Below, one piece after another: positions 58,957 to 62,695 of a DNA stretch of 64,000 nucleotides (the stretch's first letter is position 1; each line of letters starts with the position of its first letter). The stretch comes from a bacterium (lineage in GTDB: Bacteria; Patescibacteriota; Minisyncoccia; Phycocordibacterales; CAIZIN01). The DNA lies in the NCBI GenBank assembly GCA_037131675.1, contig JBAXQO010000001.1, positions 25,795-89,794 of the forward strand, in the 5' to 3' direction. Both the position numbers and the translations under genes were made by a program. Below the pieces are notes generated by a model that was not told the DNA's origin, searched no databases, and worked only from the letters and a program-made list of their open reading frames with translations.

Positions 58957-59388
58957 TTAATTAAACAATTTGATATCGTCCTCATCCAACATCTGAAAAA
59001 GGGTTGTTTCTGAAGGATCAAGACCTAATCTAAGACATTCACCATCAAACCATTCACCACCATCTTCATCTCCATGGTAAGTCATTTTATTCATATCTTC
59101 AGACCATTTAGCAATTTCCTGATCTGTTTTTTGACTACCTGTATTTTTTACAAAAGCTACCAGATCCTCATCAGTAGCTCCTTCAGTAACTTTAATCTTA
59201 AAAGCCTCAGCATCGACTTTCATAAAGTTAAATAAGTATTGATCAAGTTCACAACCAAACTCGTACTCGCCCACCTGATCGGCAATTTCAGCACGACACT
59301 TATCTATCGCTCTCGCCAAAATTACAAAACCTCCTAATTTTTCATGTGGCGATCGGGGAGATTCTTTTGTAAGGTTTTTTATCTGCAT
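58957..59388 (-). CDS. DUF5069-like protein
   Basis: N-terminal SPRSPHEKLGGFVILARAIDKCRA resembles the DUF5069 conserved start. Confidence 0.45.
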   Translation of the reverse strand: MQIKNLTKESPRSPHEKLGGFVILARAIDKCRAEIADQVGEYEFGCELDQYLFNFMKVDAEAFKIKVTEGATDEDLVAFVKNTGSQKTDQEIAKWSEDMNKMTYHGDEDGGEWFDGECLRLGLDPSETTLFQMLDEDDIKLFN

Positions 59389-59556
59389 CTTGATTTAATT
59401 ATTCATATGTACTCCAAATAATAGGAAGTGTTGGAATGATACAAAGATACCAAGTTGTCTTTATTGTATTTGTAGATGTATCGGTTTCTTTCTTCCAATA
59501 CAATCCTATCCAGAAATCTTGTTTTACGAATTTGATTTTCATATTAATAATTTATA

Positions 59557-59988
59557 TTAAATGTTATAAAAAGCTTGTATACAAAAGTCTTCGTCTTGAA
59601 TAAGATCCAGCTCCAAAGATTCTTGCGGAGTTTTCCATATAGAATCTTTATGTTCATTTGGATTTATATTCAAGGTAGGTTTTGTTTCTACTGGTAAGTG
59701 GAATATATGATACGTAAAATCATAATCTGGATATCTAACGTAAAACTTATCAAAGTATTTGAATTGATGAGATTCTGCCGATATTCCAGTTTCTTCGTTT
59801 ATCTCTCTAATTATGGCGGTTAGTAAATCCTCACCCTTGTCTATTTTTCCTGCTGGTACACCCCACGTATTTCCTTGTGGTTTTGAATCTTGTCGGTGAA
59901 GTAATAGGATTTCCGATTCATGTTCAATGAAACAGCTAACGACTTCAAACTTTTCCTTAAAATCTTCAGGTTTATCTTTGAGGATCAT
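59557..59988 (-). CDS. Nudix hydrolase
   Basis: Nudix box GKIDKGEDLLTAIIREINEETGI. Confidence 0.75.
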   Translation of the reverse strand: MILKDKPEDFKEKFEVVSCFIEHESEILLLHRQDSKPQGNTWGVPAGKIDKGEDLLTAIIREINEETGISAESHQFKYFDKFYVRYPDYDFTYHIFHLPVETKPTLNINPNEHKDSIWKTPQESLELDLIQDEDFCIQAFYNI

Positions 59989-59991
59989 AGC

Positions 59992-60378
59992 TTAAGTTTT
60001 TATTTTACCAATCAATTCTTCTGGATCATTATAAAAAATCACATCTTTGGCAACACCTTTAAGAGTACTAGAAATATCTGAACCTTCTTTTGCTATAACA
60101 ATAATAGGTTTCTGTTTAGCATACGCGTAGCCGGCTTCAATACCTAACCCAACTCCTTTTTCTGAGAACTCAATAATAAGCAAATCAGACAGATCTATTT
60201 CTTTAAAGGTTTTCTCCATAAGTTCATCTGGAGTAAAAACTACTTCTCCCCATTTTTCATAATCACGTGCCATGGAAACCGTTTCCATTCCGAGACGACC
60301 TAAAACACTAGAAATACTTTCAATAGTTTCTCTATTGGAGTTGTCTTCTTTAAATTTGATAGCTAGGTAGGCTTTCAT
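59992..60378 (-). CDS. Nucleoside 2-deoxyribosyltransferase-like (NDT/LOG-like flavodoxin fold) protein
   Basis: MKAYLAIKF... and GLGIEAGYAYAKQKPII pattern as in Nuc_deoxyri_tr2-family proteins; 128 aa. Confidence 0.5.
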   Translation of the reverse strand: MKAYLAIKFKEDNSNRETIESISSVLGRLGMETVSMARDYEKWGEVVFTPDELMEKTFKEIDLSDLLIIEFSEKGVGLGIEAGYAYAKQKPIIVIAKEGSDISSTLKGVAKDVIFYNDPEELIGKIKT

Positions 60379-60388
60379 GTTTTTAAAT

Positions 60389-61132
60389 TTAAATACTCAT
60401 TAATTCAACAATTAACTGTTTATTCTTCGACTTATGATCACGCAATACTGATAAATACTCTTCTCGTGTAAAAACCTTGAGTGATTTAATGTCCTGATCT
60501 TTGTTTTCTTTCTTAAACCTTTCTATAAGCTCTTCCGATGAAACTTTTAATACGGTTTCGAAATAGAATCCTATTCCTGTCATAGTCCCCAAATACACAC
60601 CTCTCAAATACATCTCTTCAATATCGGTTTTTTTAATGCAGGCCTCTTCTTCCAGTTCAACATACATAGAATTAAAAACATCATCTCTTGTCGCCATTTC
60701 CATTGGTTTTTCCATCATACCACCTATGAAATCTACAACGTTCATGTTCATAGATTTTCCCGATAACTCAACCATTAGGTAACAACCATCTGCGGTTCTT
60801 ACTGTGGAATGATTGAAACATTGTTTTATATAAAAACTTTCTGACAAAGTAAAATATTCAGGAATAGATGTTAACCCTGCCACAGCTTTAAATTCTACAG
60901 GTCCAAAGTCTAAAAAGAGTTTATTCTCTTTCTTTTCCAAAGAATTTAGTCTGTACGGAGTTCCATTGTAACAAACTCTTCCATCTTCTTTAGCTTTCTT
61001 TAATTTAGCTTCCCAGATTGTATCAATCTTGTTTTCAATGACGGGATTAATTTTTCTAGTTGATTCACCTAAAGAAACCACCAAATCATCAGGTTTGAAT
61101 TTACCGAGGGCTAGGGTTTCTGGGGTTTTCAT
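60389..61132 (-). CDS. Hypothetical protein (possible degenerate Nudix-like fold)
   Basis: No clean motif. GGMMEKPMEMATRDD...ELEEEA loosely resembles a decayed Nudix box. 4-nt overlap with upstream gene. Confidence 0.3.
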   Translation of the reverse strand: MKTPETLALGKFKPDDLVVSLGESTRKINPVIENKIDTIWEAKLKKAKEDGRVCYNGTPYRLNSLEKKENKLFLDFGPVEFKAVAGLTSIPEYFTLSESFYIKQCFNHSTVRTADGCYLMVELSGKSMNMNVVDFIGGMMEKPMEMATRDDVFNSMYVELEEEACIKKTDIEEMYLRGVYLGTMTGIGFYFETVLKVSSEELIERFKKENKDQDIKSLKVFTREEYLSVLRDHKSKNKQLIVELMSI

Positions 61133-61452
61133 ATATTTTCTAAATTATATACATCCAAAGCCACCTCATCATATGGGTGAACTTCTTTAATGGCTTTAAT
61201 TACTTCTTCCAATTTTTTTCTTGGACAAACAGTTTCGATCCTTTCTTCAACCACTTCTTCAAACTTTCCGACTTCACCAATATGAGGATTTGCTCCAATA
61301 TCAGGTCTAAATCTTCCAATACCCTTTGTAGAGAAAGTGCAGTAAGAGTAATTACCGATTTTACCTGCACCAGCTTTACCCATGGCTTCACGAACTATGT
61401 CTGTGTGGGTTTCTGGGACAAAAACGACAACTTTTACGTTTTTTGAATTCAT
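61129..61452 (-). CDS. Small conserved protein (PII/CutA-like insertion-domain family seen in Nif3/YqfO proteins)
   Basis: VVVFVPETH...AGAGKIGNYSYCTF...HPYDEVALDV pattern. Assignment tentative. Confidence 0.3.
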   Translation of the reverse strand: MNSKNVKVVVFVPETHTDIVREAMGKAGAGKIGNYSYCTFSTKGIGRFRPDIGANPHIGEVGKFEEVVEERIETVCPRKKLEEVIKAIKEVHPYDEVALDVYNLENI

Positions 61453-61455
61453 AGA

Positions 61456-62049
61456 TTAAAGTTTAGAAACTAATCTCTTTACTACCTCTAAATATTCTTC
61501 TTGTCCAATCTTGTGTTCAGCTCCTCTAGCAACACTTAAATGATTGTCTTGTAATTTCTTCTTCGCGTCTTTCGCCCTAGCTATACAAGATTCATCTTCT
61601 TTTTCTCCAACAATCAGGTATGTTTTAGTTTTAATCTTTTGAGCAATTTTCGTAAATGAATAATCACTCTCTATAAAGTTCTTTCTCCACCATCTAACCC
61701 ATGCTGGCTTTAGGTTTATTAAATCTTCTTCAAAGAAAGGTGAGAGTGAACAGAGGATAAGAGCTTTTGGTTTTGTTTTAGTTGCAGTTAATAAAGCAAT
61801 CATTGCTCCGTAAGAAAATCCTAGGATATAGGTTTCTGTATTTTTTTGATTTTTATACACTTTTAAAAACTGTTCAGTATAATCATCAAATCGGTTTGGA
61901 TTATTGTGTTTCCAGTCTATTTCGACATGTATTGGCGTAACTCCAGATTCTTCAAAAAGTTTTGCAACTTTATTGTATCCTCGCTGTTTTAAATGAGATT
62001 CGTTATATCCTGGAATTATATATGCGATTTTTAGTTTTTTTGAATCCAT
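61456..62049 (-). CDS. Alpha/beta-hydrolase fold protein
   Basis: GFSYGA nucleophile elbow (GxSxG) and length ~200 aa. Confidence 0.55.
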   Translation of the reverse strand: MDSKKLKIAYIIPGYNESHLKQRGYNKVAKLFEESGVTPIHVEIDWKHNNPNRFDDYTEQFLKVYKNQKNTETYILGFSYGAMIALLTATKTKPKALILCSLSPFFEEDLINLKPAWVRWWRKNFIESDYSFTKIAQKIKTKTYLIVGEKEDESCIARAKDAKKKLQDNHLSVARGAEHKIGQEEYLEVVKRLVSKL

Positions 62050-62065
62050 TGTTTTTATAATTTAT

Positions 62066-62695
62066 CTAAATTAAAGGTATTGAATATTTCTCAGGATTTT
62101 TAATTAAATCTTTGAGCTCCTCAAGCTTGTCCTGCATGAGCATATCTTCAATGAAACGAGGACGATGAAACAATTCTCGTTTTCGTGTCATCTCAACAGG
62201 TTTTTCTAAGGAAACTTTTACCACCTCATTTTTCTCTCCCGGATCAAGTTTCTTTTCTTTTTCACCTCGATATCCAGAAGCAACAAAAGTGTAAGCAAAC
62301 CATTCAACTGCGGGTGTACTGGTTTCTATGTGAACGAGACAATAATTATCGAAAATAAGACCCGTTTCCTCCTCGAGCTCTCGTCGCGCAGCAGTTTCCA
62401 AATCTTCGTCATCATTTACCATACCTGCCACAAGTGTGTAGCCAGGATTGTCCCAGTGAGGCTGTTGTTCTTTTACTAAGGCTATCTCTCCATCAATAAT
62501 CGGAATAACTATAACCGTATCGTTTCTCTTCACGATTTCAAAAGTTGAAACAGAACCATCAAATTGTTTCTGTTGCCATTGATATGTATCGAATCGAACA
62601 CCCTTAAAAACCCTCTCGGCATTTTCAGAATGTAGTTTTATATTTGGGGGAAGGGGTCGGTTTTTCATATTAATATGAGAATAATTATAAACCAA
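62066..62695 (-). CDS. Nudix hydrolase (ADP-ribose pyrophosphatase-like)
   Basis: Nudix box GMVNDDEDLETAARRELEEETGL. Confidence 0.75.
   Translation of the reverse strand: MVYNYSHINMKNRPLPPNIKLHSENAERVFKGVRFDTYQWQQKQFDGSVSTFEIVKRNDTVIVIPIIDGEIALVKEQQPHWDNPGYTLVAGMVNDDEDLETAARRELEEETGLIFDNYCLVHIETSTPAVEWFAYTFVASGYRGEKEKKLDPGEKNEVVKVSLEKPVEMTRKRELFHRPRFIEDMLMQDKLEELKDLIKNPEKYSIPLI

What the first reader, a model, noticed from the sequence alone, without database searches (positions are those of the whole stretch)
58957..62695. tRNA-bracketed six-gene operon of nucleotide-handling enzymes (Nudix - alpha/beta hydrolase - PII-like - unknown - NDT/LOG-like - Nudix) plus DUF5069
Between tRNA-Pro (58211-58369) and tRNA-Gln (62800-62870) lie eight minus-strand genes. 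Six are packed with 3-16-nt gaps or 4-nt overlaps (59557..62695). They comprise two bona fide Nudix hydrolases, a nucleoside-2-deoxyribosyltransferase/LOG-like protein, an alpha/beta hydrolase, a ~107-aa PII/CutA-like protein and a 247-aa unknown protein with a degenerate Nudix-like stretch. NDT/LOG (SLOG-related) and Nudix modules are building blocks of nucleotide-signal-processing and NAD/ADP-ribose-turnover systems, including several anti-phage systems. The tight operon and tRNA flanks suggest an accessory nucleotide-modification or salvage island of undescribed function.
Basis: partly seen in the sequence, partly recalled or inferred. Interest (0 to 1): 0.6.

Follow-up and report, generated by a model that had tools for sequence, protein, structure and literature searches.

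The report
Species-specific cluster of nucleotide-hydrolase genes
A tightly packed run of small nucleotide-cleaving enzyme genes in an uncultured Patescibacteria genome is real, but it is not a conserved system: it occurs as a unit only in this one species and is already split in relatives about 85-88% identical, so it is an ordinary, probably co-transcribed, set of housekeeping or salvage enzymes.

Summary
The genes, coordinates and 3-16 nt gaps / 4-nt overlap are as described. The family calls hold, with refinements:
- The 247-aa "unknown" protein is a two-domain Nudix enzyme with the human NUDT22 fold (TM 0.80).
- The "PII-like" protein is a stand-alone copy of the NIF3/YqfO insert domain.
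- The NDT-like protein is closest to the DNPH1/Rcl/MilB nucleotide N-glycosidases.

tRNA-Gln is confirmed. "tRNA-Pro" is a tRNA-Pro(GGG) with an ~80-nt insertion in its D-loop.

- Only clonal contigs of the same species show the six-gene order.
- ~85-88% relatives carry separate [Nudix-esterase] and [NUDT22-like-NDT] pairs.
- In 24 relatives 37-67% identical, none of the partner genes lies within 2-8 kb.

There is no integrase, att repeat or GC shift. PADLOC gives only one generic Nudix match, and there is no phage homolog. The packing and tRNA density are normal for this genome.

One weak theme survives: a Nudix gene sits directly upstream of the NDT-like gene in 7 of 64 independent loci (p≈0.03).

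Verdict: a lineage-specific array of nucleotide house-cleaning/salvage hydrolases; low interest.

The parts
62799..62870 (-). tRNA-Gln (anticodon UUG), upstream boundary
   Evidence: ARAGORN; Rfam tRNA 56.8 bits
62768..62796 (-). Sigma-70-like promoter match, TTGACA-17-CATAAT with TG (11 of 12), 2 nt after the tRNA-Gln 3' end. Candidate promoter of the gene array.
   Evidence: Consensus scan; sequence read. Function inferred, not shown.
62689..62731 (.). Perfect 19-bp hairpin (5-nt loop) between the promoter-like site and the NudixA start. Either a weak tRNA-Gln terminator or a 5'-leader element. Unique in the window.
   Evidence: no Rfam family above noise
62066..62668 (-). NudixA, 200 aa from ATG 62668 (the TTG-extended ORF runs to 62695). 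Canonical Nudix box; ADP-ribose/ADP-sugar pyrophosphatase-like.
   Evidence: Pfam NUDIX 3.5e-15. PDB T. thermophilus ADPRase 1v8i 2.9e-8. NCBIfam NudE/YffH/AdpP hits below their cut-offs. Box GMVNDDEDLETAARRELEEE.
61456..62049 (-). Small alpha/beta-hydrolase (197 aa) with GFSYG nucleophile elbow and invariant His179. Generic carboxylesterase fold.
   Evidence: Pfam Hydrolase_4 1.9e-7. Invariant G77-F78-S79-G81 and H179. AF2 pLDDT 94.9. Foldseek top hits are feruloyl/cinnamoyl esterases, TM ~0.75.
61129..61452 (-). 107-aa stand-alone homolog of the PII-like insert domain of NIF3/YqfO proteins. Overlaps the next gene by 4 nt. Function unknown.
   Evidence: phmmer to PDB 2gx8 residues 162-262, E = 7.5e-34. 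Pfam P-II only 17.2 bits, below the cut-off of 25.
60389..61132 (-). 247-aa two-domain Nudix-fold protein, NUDT22-like. Non-canonical Nudix box with an invariant E159/E162/E163 helix. No Pfam or NCBIfam model.
   Evidence: No family hits. Family alignment. AF2 pLDDT 94.7. Foldseek top six hits are human NUDT22, E = 8e-15, TM 0.80. 638 clusters at 50% identity in public data.
59992..60378 (-). 128-aa NDT-superfamily protein closest to the nucleotide N-glycosidases (MilB CMP N-glycosidase, DNPH1/Rcl). The nucleophile Glu is conserved (E81).
   Evidence: Pfam Nuc_deoxyrib_tr 24.1 bits, below the cut-off of 28.8. More than 500 homologs at 60-80% identity in Patescibacteria and DPANN archaea, many carrying PF05014. 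Profile vs PDB: 4jen 1.4e-6, Rcl/DNPH1 ~2e-3, with E81 aligned to the Rcl catalytic Glu.
59557..59988 (-). NudixB, 143 aa. MutT/NudG-type (d)NTP pyrophosphohydrolase-like, canonical Nudix box.
   Evidence: Pfam NUDIX 5.7e-19. PDB 2rrk CTP pyrophosphohydrolase 6.7e-11. NCBIfam hits all below cut-off. PADLOC PDC-S07 65.7 bits, a generic Nudix-level score.
59399..59542 (-). 47-aa ORF (MKIKFVKQDFWIGLYWKK...WYLCIIPTLPIIW) in the 168-nt 'gap' between NudixB and DUF5069.
   Evidence: Called as a gene in L001/L003/L115. Sequence. No Pfam hit.
58957..59388 (-). DUF5069 protein, 143 aa, function unknown
   Evidence: Pfam DUF5069 5.5e-31. PDB 3omd 'uncharacterized protein' 9.7e-18.
58394..58951 (-). Peptidase S51-like gene interrupted by one in-frame TAA (58736-58738): a pseudogene or a split gene
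   Evidence: The interruption is identical in independent assemblies.
58211..58369 (+). tRNA-Pro(GGG) with an ~80-nt insertion in the D-loop. Encoded CCA, followed by a terminator hairpin at 58365-58387. Downstream boundary.
   Evidence: ARAGORN negative. Rfam partial hit 58302-58358, 30.8 bits. Sequence read. Fold -54.7 kcal/mol, z = -3.3, with the acceptor stem closed. 100% identical in contigs from at least 5 samples.

Best explanation
This is a lineage-specific, probably co-transcribed array of independently evolving 'house-cleaning'/salvage hydrolases in a Patescibacteria (Paceibacteria-type) genome. It is not a dedicated multi-component system.

Inferred chemistry:
- Three Nudix-fold pyrophosphatases each cut a nucleoside-diphosphate-X or (d)NTP into an NMP/dNMP plus a sugar phosphate or PPi. 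They are ADP-ribose/ADP-sugar type, NUDT22-like (probably UDP-hexose type) and MutT/NudG type.
- The DNPH1/MilB-like N-glycosidase can then split a (d)NMP into free base plus (deoxy)ribose-5-phosphate.
- The roles of the small esterase, the NIF3-insert-like protein and DUF5069 are unknown, and no evidence ties them to the others.

Shown here: gene identities, folds, spacing, and the lack of conserved linkage. Inferred: co-transcription from the promoter-like site at 62796-62768, the substrates, and the Nudix-to-N-glycosidase hand-over.

The array arose by recent juxtaposition of at least four units: [NudixA-esterase], [NIF3-insert-like], [NUDT22-like-NDT-like] and [NudixB].
For: - Family and fold assignments.
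- Intact catalytic motifs: canonical Nudix boxes; invariant E159/E162/E163 in the 247-aa family; E81 aligned with the Rcl nucleophile; GFSYG and His179.
- One strong promoter-like site upstream, and no minus-strand terminator-like site inside 59557-62668.
- The six-gene order occurs only in ~100%-identical contigs.
- An 88% relative keeps only unk247-NDT, followed by a different (YfcD/IDI-like) Nudix.
- An 85% relative keeps only NudixA-ABH, followed by Lactamase_B and M29 peptidase genes.
- There is no linkage around 24 more distant unk247 homologs, no unk247 around 80 NDT-like loci, and no linkage around 3 further ABH loci.
- Each family is widespread on its own in Patescibacteria/DPANN.
- Recurrent but variable Nudix-to-NDT adjacency: 7 of 64 loci, p=0.028. 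The Nudix subtypes differ. L071 has three Nudix genes in a row before the NDT-like gene. HIT and isochorismatase-family neighbours occur elsewhere.
Against: - No expression data, so co-transcription is inferred from spacing alone, and that spacing is typical of this genome.
- Substrates are extrapolated from distant relatives: 14% identity to NUDT22, and NCBIfam scores far below the equivalog cut-offs.
- The Nudix-NDT enrichment is modest (p≈0.03, 11 motif hits in total) and was measured with a regex for canonical boxes only.
- The esterase, the NIF3-insert-like protein and DUF5069 have no demonstrated link to nucleotides.
- Only ±2-8 kb around homologs was examined, so longer-range co-occurrence in the same genomes was not tested.
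Confidence: 0.6

Rival explanations
1. Pure neutral juxtaposition. In a compact, mostly one-strand genome with fast gene-order turnover, unrelated small genes happen to lie side by side. The shared 'nucleotide' flavour reflects only how common Nudix genes are in these genomes.
For: Gene order around every family is almost completely unconserved. 42% of same-strand junctions are <=20 nt. Nudix-box genes occur about once per 30-40 kb in these genomes, and a further Nudix domain sits inside LeuRS in this same window. Three of the genes have no nucleotide link.
Against: Three Nudix-fold genes plus an NDT-like gene within 3.1 kb is well above the background density. Nudix genes are enriched directly upstream of, and co-oriented with, NDT-like genes in independent lineages. 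One of those loci has a three-Nudix + NDT arrangement.
Confidence: 0.3
2. A nucleotide-signal-processing or anti-phage defence system built from NDT/SLOG-like and Nudix modules.
For: NudixB matches the PADLOC candidate PDC-S07 (65.7 bits). From my own knowledge, Nudix and NDT/TIR-like folds do occur in conflict systems (Burroughs et al. 2015).
Against: The PADLOC score equals the generic Pfam NUDIX score, and the six other proteins have no PADLOC hit. There is no signal-generating enzyme, sensor or effector. There is no LOG/SLOG family hit. The cluster is not conserved. The NDT-like and 247-aa families are conserved at 45-80% identity across many lineages, like housekeeping genes. There are no phage homologs.
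Confidence: 0.03
3. A mobile genomic island integrated at a tRNA gene.
For: It is flanked by tRNA-Gln and an unusual tRNA-Pro. Contigs from other assemblies end or start within ~59290-59890, which hints at strain variation or an assembly fork there.
Against: There is no integrase or recombinase among the ORFs. There is no direct repeat derived from either tRNA. GC is 0.31-0.38, like the rest of the genome, in contrast to the clearly deviant 40-43 kb and 55-57 kb patches. tRNA genes are dense in such genomes. In relatives, parts of the cluster sit in unrelated, tRNA-free contexts.
Confidence: 0.05

Closest known systems
Human NUDT22 (UDP-glucose/UDP-galactose hydrolase; PDB 5LOR/5LF9/5LOU)
   Same: The 247-aa protein has the same two-domain architecture: an N-terminal domain plus a Nudix-fold domain with a non-canonical, lengthened Nudix box. 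TM-score is 0.80 over the whole protein. The acidic residues of the Nudix helix are invariant. NUDT22 makes UMP + glucose-1-P and feeds pyrimidine salvage (PMC10101856).
   Different: Only ~14% identity. Profile-to-sequence search does not detect it. The protein is about 45 residues shorter. It is bacterial (Patescibacteria) and its substrate is untested.
DNPH1/Rcl 2'-deoxynucleoside 5'-phosphate N-hydrolase and MilB/BlsM CMP N-glycosidases (NDT superfamily)
   Same: NDT_128 has the same fold family. Its best PDB sequence matches are 4jen (MilB) and Rcl/DNPH1. The nucleophile Glu sits in a G-x-G-x-x-E-x-G motif aligned with the Rcl Glu. Its size (~130 aa) is similar.
   Different: The Pfam score is below the gathering threshold for this sequence. 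It belongs to a distinct, highly conserved Patescibacteria/DPANN clade. The substrate (dNMP, NMP or nucleoside) is unknown.
PII-like insert domain of NIF3/YqfO (B. cereus 2GX8; S. aureus SA1388)
   Same: PII_107 aligns end to end with the insert domain, residues 162-262 of 2gx8, at E = 7.5e-34.
   Different: It is stand-alone, with no NIF3 dinuclear-metal core attached. It is not a canonical PII/GlnB signal protein (Pfam score below cut-off). Function is unknown in both settings.
ADP-ribose pyrophosphatases (T. thermophilus Ndx4 1V8I; E. coli NudF/NudE) and NudG/MutT-type NTP pyrophosphohydrolases
   Same: Canonical Nudix boxes. NudixA's best matches are ADPRases and NudixB's are CTP pyrophosphohydrolase/MutT.
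   Different: All NCBIfam equivalog scores are far below their cut-offs, so the exact substrates cannot be assigned.
Nudix/SLOG/TIR nucleotide-centric conflict systems (Burroughs et al. 2015; my own knowledge) and PADLOC defence candidates
   Same: They share building-block folds (Nudix, NDT-like Rossmannoid).
   Different: There is no signal synthase, sensor or effector, no conserved gene neighbourhood, and no specific PADLOC match.

Membership tests
Nudix hydrolase superfamily (NudixA, NudixB) | Nudix box GX5EX7REUXEEXGU and a Pfam PF00293 match above the gathering score | tested here: met
   Boxes GMVNDDEDLETAARRELEEETGL and GKIDKGEDLLTAIIREINEETGI. PF00293 scores 56.6 and 68.9 bits against a cut-off of 21.1.
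ADP-ribose pyrophosphatase subfamily (NudixA) | Equivalog-level sequence match, plus a Pro ~15-16 residues after the Nudix box (criterion recalled from Dunn et al. 1999; my own knowledge) | tested here: inconclusive
   The best hits are ADPRases (1v8i 2.9e-8), but NCBIfam scores 39 bits against a 169 cut-off. A Pro lies 15 residues after the box in the sequence.
NUDT22-like Nudix (247-aa protein) | Two-domain NUDT22 fold | tested here: met
   The top six Foldseek hits are all NUDT22, E = 8e-15 to 1e-13, TM 0.77-0.81. The next hits are single Nudix domains with TM <=0.44. The model has pLDDT 94.7.
NUDT22-like Nudix (247-aa protein) | Detectable sequence homology to NUDT22 | tested here: not met
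   The profile of 24 family members finds no NUDT22 chain at E<=1. Structural-alignment identity is 14%.
NUDT22-like Nudix (247-aa protein) | UDP-glucose/UDP-galactose hydrolase activity | not testable with these tools
   Needs enzymology. Only the conserved acidic Nudix-helix residues E159/E162/E163 are seen.
DNPH1/Rcl/MilB nucleotide N-glycosidases (NDT superfamily) | NDT fold-family match and a conserved nucleophile Glu | tested here: met
   Family profile vs PDB: 4jen 1.4e-6 and Rcl 1.7e-3, with E81 aligned to the Glu of the Rcl GVGYELG motif. PF05014 is precomputed for many close homologs. The window protein itself scores 24.1 against a 28.8 cut-off.
LOG/SLOG family | Match to LOG/SLOG models | tested here: not met
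   Only NDT-type Pfam families are hit (PF05014, PF11071, PF15891). No LOG/SLOG family appears at E<=0.1.
PII (GlnB/GlnK) signal proteins | Pfam P-II match above the gathering score | tested here: not met
   17.2 bits against a cut-off of 25. The strong match is instead to the NIF3/YqfO insert domain.
NIF3/YqfO family | NIF3 dinuclear-metal core domain | tested here: not met
   The 107-aa protein covers only the insert, residues 162-262 of 2gx8.
Known or candidate anti-phage defence systems (PADLOC) | Specific model hits for the system's components | tested here: not met
   Six of seven proteins have no hit. NudixB matches PDC-S07 at 65.7 bits, comparable to its generic NUDIX Pfam score.
Conserved operon / gene-neighbourhood system | The same genes are linked in phylogenetically distinct relatives | tested here: not met
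   Linkage is seen only in clonal contigs. It is split at 85-88% identity and absent at <=75%.
tRNA-integrated genomic island | Integrase, att direct repeats derived from the tRNA, deviant composition | tested here: not met
   No integrase, no tRNA-derived repeat, and GC like the genome average.

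The most novel reading that the evidence does not exclude
In genome-reduced Patescibacteria and DPANN archaea, the DNPH1/MilB-like N-glycosidase may work as the second step of a dedicated nucleotide-scavenging route. A neighbouring Nudix-fold enzyme of interchangeable subtype, here a previously unannotated bacterial NUDT22-like enzyme, would first convert an NDP-sugar or (d)NTP to a (d)NMP. 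The glycosidase would then split that into base plus (deoxy)ribose-5-phosphate for salvage and central carbon metabolism. Under this reading the window shows an unusually complete version, with three Nudix enzymes and the glycosidase.
Probability: 0.25. Interest if true: 0.45.

Novelty: new member of a known kind. Interest (0 to 1): 0.2.

Why it matters
The main value is a negative result. A plausible-looking "nucleotide-signalling/defence island" turns out to be an evolutionarily short-lived arrangement of ordinary hydrolases, so it should not be added to catalogues of candidate systems.

Three modest positive points remain:
1. A family of at least 638 sequence clusters of unnamed ~247-aa Patescibacteria proteins, with no Pfam or NCBIfam model, can now be annotated as NUDT22-like Nudix enzymes.
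2. The very conserved small NDT-like protein of Patescibacteria/DPANN is best read as a nucleotide N-glycosidase. It shows a weak, testable tendency to sit directly downstream of Nudix genes.
3. Both points bear on how organisms with minimal biosynthesis recycle scavenged nucleotides.

Tried and rejected
**Defence system.** Rejected. The PADLOC scan gave only a generic Nudix hit. tblastn of the NDT-like and 247-aa proteins against 50,697 phage records found nothing.

**Mobile island.** Rejected. The repeat search found no att-like repeats, there is no GC shift and no integrase.

**Conserved neighbours.**
- All-vs-all clustering of ORFs around 22 unk247 loci found only small neighbour clusters, the largest shared by 4 loci. 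One further cluster is only an antisense shadow ORF inside the gene.
- Around 80 NDT-like loci the only recurrent real neighbours were Nudix, HIT, SDR and ABC-transporter families, each in a minority of loci.
- A first gene-level Fisher test of Nudix-NDT adjacency gave p=0.088, because greedy ORF calling dropped overlapping Nudix ORFs. It was replaced by a motif-position test, p=0.028.

**Hairpin 62689-62731.** It is not a repeated element and matches no Rfam family.

**Sequence-level link to NUDT22.** Not detectable.

**Unavailable or empty.**
- Literature searches returned nothing for tRNA introns in Patescibacteria, for NDT + Nudix in CPR, and for LeuRS + Nudix domain.
Only clonal copies were recovered.

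Full report
**Source and setting.** The window comes from an uncultured Patescibacteria (Paceibacteria-type) genome.
- The 247-aa protein is 100% identical to an NCBI MAG protein (locus tag WCO12_00515, "bacterium"). Its relatives are labelled Paceibacterota, Parcubacteria, Moraniibacteriota, Nomurabacteria and similar.
- The genome is AT-rich (GC ~0.35) and about 89% coding in a crude ORF tiling. About 77% of ORFs lie on the minus strand.

**Observation check.**
- Junctions are 3, 10, -4, 3 and 16 nt.
- tRNA-Gln(UUG) at 62799-62870 is confirmed by ARAGORN and Rfam.
- The "tRNA-Pro" is unusual. ARAGORN misses it and Rfam matches only 58302-58358 (30.8 bits).
- Read directly, 58211-58369 has a perfect 7-bp acceptor stem, normal anticodon (GGG) and T arms, and an encoded CCA. 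About 80 nt are inserted in the D-loop.
- NudixA most likely starts at ATG 62668 (200 aa), as in four other assemblies and in a 91% homolog.
- A 47-aa ORF fills the NudixB-DUF5069 "gap".
- The S51 peptidase gene carries an in-frame TAA.
- The tRNA insertion and the TAA are identical in contigs from at least five independent samples, so they are not assembly artefacts.
- Tight packing is not special here: 42% of same-strand junctions in the window are <=20 nt.
- tRNA genes occur roughly every 16 kb in relatives' loci, so a 4.4-kb tRNA bracket is unremarkable.

**What the genes are.**
- *NudixA* has a canonical Nudix box and is closest to ADP-ribose/ADP-sugar pyrophosphatases (1v8i, 2.9e-8). It is far below the NCBIfam equivalog cut-offs.
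- *The 197-aa protein* is a minimal Ser-His alpha/beta-hydrolase with a GFSYG motif and His179. Its model (pLDDT 94.9) resembles feruloyl/cinnamoyl and other carboxylesterases (TM ~0.75). This is a generic esterase fold with no nucleotide link.
- *The 107-aa "PII-like" protein* is a stand-alone homolog of the PII-like insert domain of NIF3/YqfO (2gx8 residues 162-262, E = 7.5e-34). It is below threshold for PII proper.
- *The 247-aa "unknown" protein* has no Pfam or NCBIfam hit.
  - A 24-member alignment shows an invariant GG..E...ELEEE motif.
  - Its AlphaFold model (pLDDT 94.7) matches human NUDT22 over both domains (E = 8e-15, TM 0.80). Every other hit covers only the Nudix domain.
  - NUDT22 hydrolyses UDP-glucose to UMP + glucose-1-P and supports pyrimidine salvage (PMC10101856, which cites Carter et al. 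2018).
  - Sequence-level homology to NUDT22 is not detectable.
  - The family comprises 638 clusters at 50% identity and is essentially unnamed.
- *The 128-aa NDT-like protein* belongs to a very conserved clade (60-80% identity) spread across Patescibacteria and DPANN archaea. Its profile is closest to MilB CMP N-glycosidase and DNPH1/Rcl, and invariant E81 aligns with the Rcl nucleophile.
- *NudixB* is MutT/NudG-like (2rrk, 6.7e-11).
- *DUF5069* matches only an uncharacterised structure.

**Is it a system?** Comparative genomics says no.

| Viewpoint | Relatives examined | Result |
|---|---|---|
| Exact look-up of the 247-aa protein | Five ~100%-identical contigs | Same gene order |
| 247-aa gene, 88% relative (L030) | One locus | NDT-like gene (87%) still follows. 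The next gene is a different, YfcD/IDI-like Nudix. The upstream gene is not the NIF3-insert-like protein. |
| 247-aa gene, 67% and 62% relatives | L028, L029 | None of the other five genes within 2-6 kb (the full extent of these short contigs) |
| 247-aa gene, 22 species-level genomes (37-59% identity) | L006-L027 | None of the other five genes within up to ±8 kb, except one esterase homolog 2.5 kb away on the opposite strand in L025. No conserved neighbour at all. |
| Esterase, 85% relative (L111) | One locus | NudixA (91%) kept upstream. Lactamase_B and peptidase M29 genes lie downstream. |
| Esterase, 75%, 69% and 63% relatives | L112-L114 | Unrelated neighbours |
| NDT-like gene | 80 metagenomic loci | None has the 247-aa gene. 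One has the NIF3-insert-like gene, separated from the NDT-like gene by an isochorismatase-family gene (L080). |

The array therefore assembled recently from at least four units.

**What survives of the functional theme.** In 64 NDT-like loci deduplicated at 90% identity:
- Seven carry a canonical Nudix-box gene directly upstream on the same strand, against four farther away (binomial p = 0.028).
- The Nudix subtypes differ: MutT-like (137-157 aa), zinc-ribbon Nudix, and wHTH-Nudix (232 aa).
- Locus L071 has three Nudix genes in a row before the NDT-like gene.
- HIT-family nucleotide hydrolases are neighbours in a few loci.

In the window, the gene directly upstream of the NDT-like gene is again a Nudix-fold protein (the NUDT22-like one). 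This points to a loose guild of nucleotide hydrolases rather than a fixed architecture.

**Most likely mechanism (inferred).** The Nudix enzymes would convert NDP-X or (d)NTP species to (d)NMPs. The DNPH1/MilB-like enzyme would release base plus (deoxy)ribose-5-P, which serves sanitation or salvage. From my own knowledge, Patescibacteria depend heavily on nucleotide scavenging.

Co-transcription is plausible but untested:
- A TTGACA-17-CATAAT site lies just after tRNA-Gln, followed by a perfect 19-bp hairpin and then the NudixA ATG.
- No terminator-like site lies inside the six genes.

**Rivals.**
- *Defence or signalling system:* only a generic Nudix-level PADLOC hit, no LOG/SLOG match, no synthase, sensor or effector, and no phage homologs.
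- *tRNA-targeted island:* no integrase, no att repeats and no GC shift.
- *Pure chance juxtaposition* remains a serious alternative (~0.3), given the extreme gene-order fluidity.

**Verdict.** In terms of novelty these are new members of known kinds. The most useful by-product within the finding is the NUDT22-like annotation of an unnamed Patescibacteria family. Interest is low (0.2).

Things seen outside the finding look more unusual than the finding itself and are listed separately. They are a LeuRS with an inserted Nudix domain, the D-loop-interrupted tRNA-Pro, a PAICS-like PurC-PurE fusion in a high-GC patch, and a tRNA-Ser with an ACU anticodon.

Noticed in passing
window 32821-35838 (-); also L010 7076-10009: The leucyl-tRNA synthetase (1005 aa) carries a complete NUDIX domain (PF00293 1.3e-12, residues 462-565, canonical box GGVNEGEDLIDAAKREVLEE). 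It is inserted just after the editing domain. The same LeuRS-Nudix insertion is present in a Taylorbacteria MAG locus. A full-text search for 'leucyl-tRNA synthetase' + 'Nudix domain' found no paper.
   Followed up: partly
window 58211-58369 (+): tRNA-Pro(GGG) has an ~80-nt insertion in the D-loop, between GCTCAGTC and TTTGGTTAGAGC. The acceptor, anticodon and T arms and the CCA are intact. The insertion folds into its own hairpins (whole molecule -54.7 kcal/mol, z = -3.3). It is 100% identical in contigs from at least 5 samples. No comparator from other species could be fetched, so it is unknown whether it is removed or tolerated.
   Followed up: partly
window 54661-57291 (+): A 435-aa SAICAR synthetase + AIR carboxylase fusion (PurC-PurE, the same domain order as animal PAICS) sits in a high-GC patch (0.43-0.485, against 0.35 for the genome). 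It is followed by a 401-aa protein with no Pfam hit. This looks like horizontally acquired DNA.
   Followed up: partly
window 39719-42876 (+): A second high-GC patch (up to 0.53) carries aspartate-semialdehyde dehydrogenase plus aconitase-family large and small subunits (LeuCD/homoaconitase-like) on the plus strand. It is probably another acquired block.
   Followed up: partly
window 44278-44365 (-): tRNA-Ser has the anticodon loop TTACTAA, i.e. anticodon ACU with A34, rather than the usual GCU for AGY codons.
   Followed up: partly
window 58394-58951 (-): The peptidase S51-like gene is interrupted by a single in-frame TAA (58736-58738). The interruption is identical in independent assemblies, so it is a genuine pseudogene or split gene.
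   Followed up: yes
window 62689-62731: A perfect 19-bp hairpin with a 5-nt loop lies between a near-consensus promoter-like site (62796-62768, minus strand) and the NudixA start. It is unique in the window and matches no Rfam family. Its role (tRNA-Gln terminator versus leader element) is unresolved.
   Followed up: partly
window 59399-59542 (-): A 47-aa ORF (MKIKFVKQDFWIGLYWKK...WYLCIIPTLPIIW) is called as a gene in other assemblies. It has no Pfam hit.
   Followed up: partly
L071 910-1608 and L089 800-1501: In two other lineages the gene directly upstream of the NDT-like gene is a 232-233-aa fusion of an N-terminal winged-helix domain and a C-terminal Nudix domain. This is the reverse domain order of NrtR-type regulators and may be a nucleotide-responsive regulator.
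   Followed up: partly
L080 4053-5381: In another organism a 67%-identical homolog of the NIF3-insert-like protein, an isochorismatase-family hydrolase and the NDT-like gene form a tight three-gene cluster with overlapping or abutting ORFs.
   Followed up: partly
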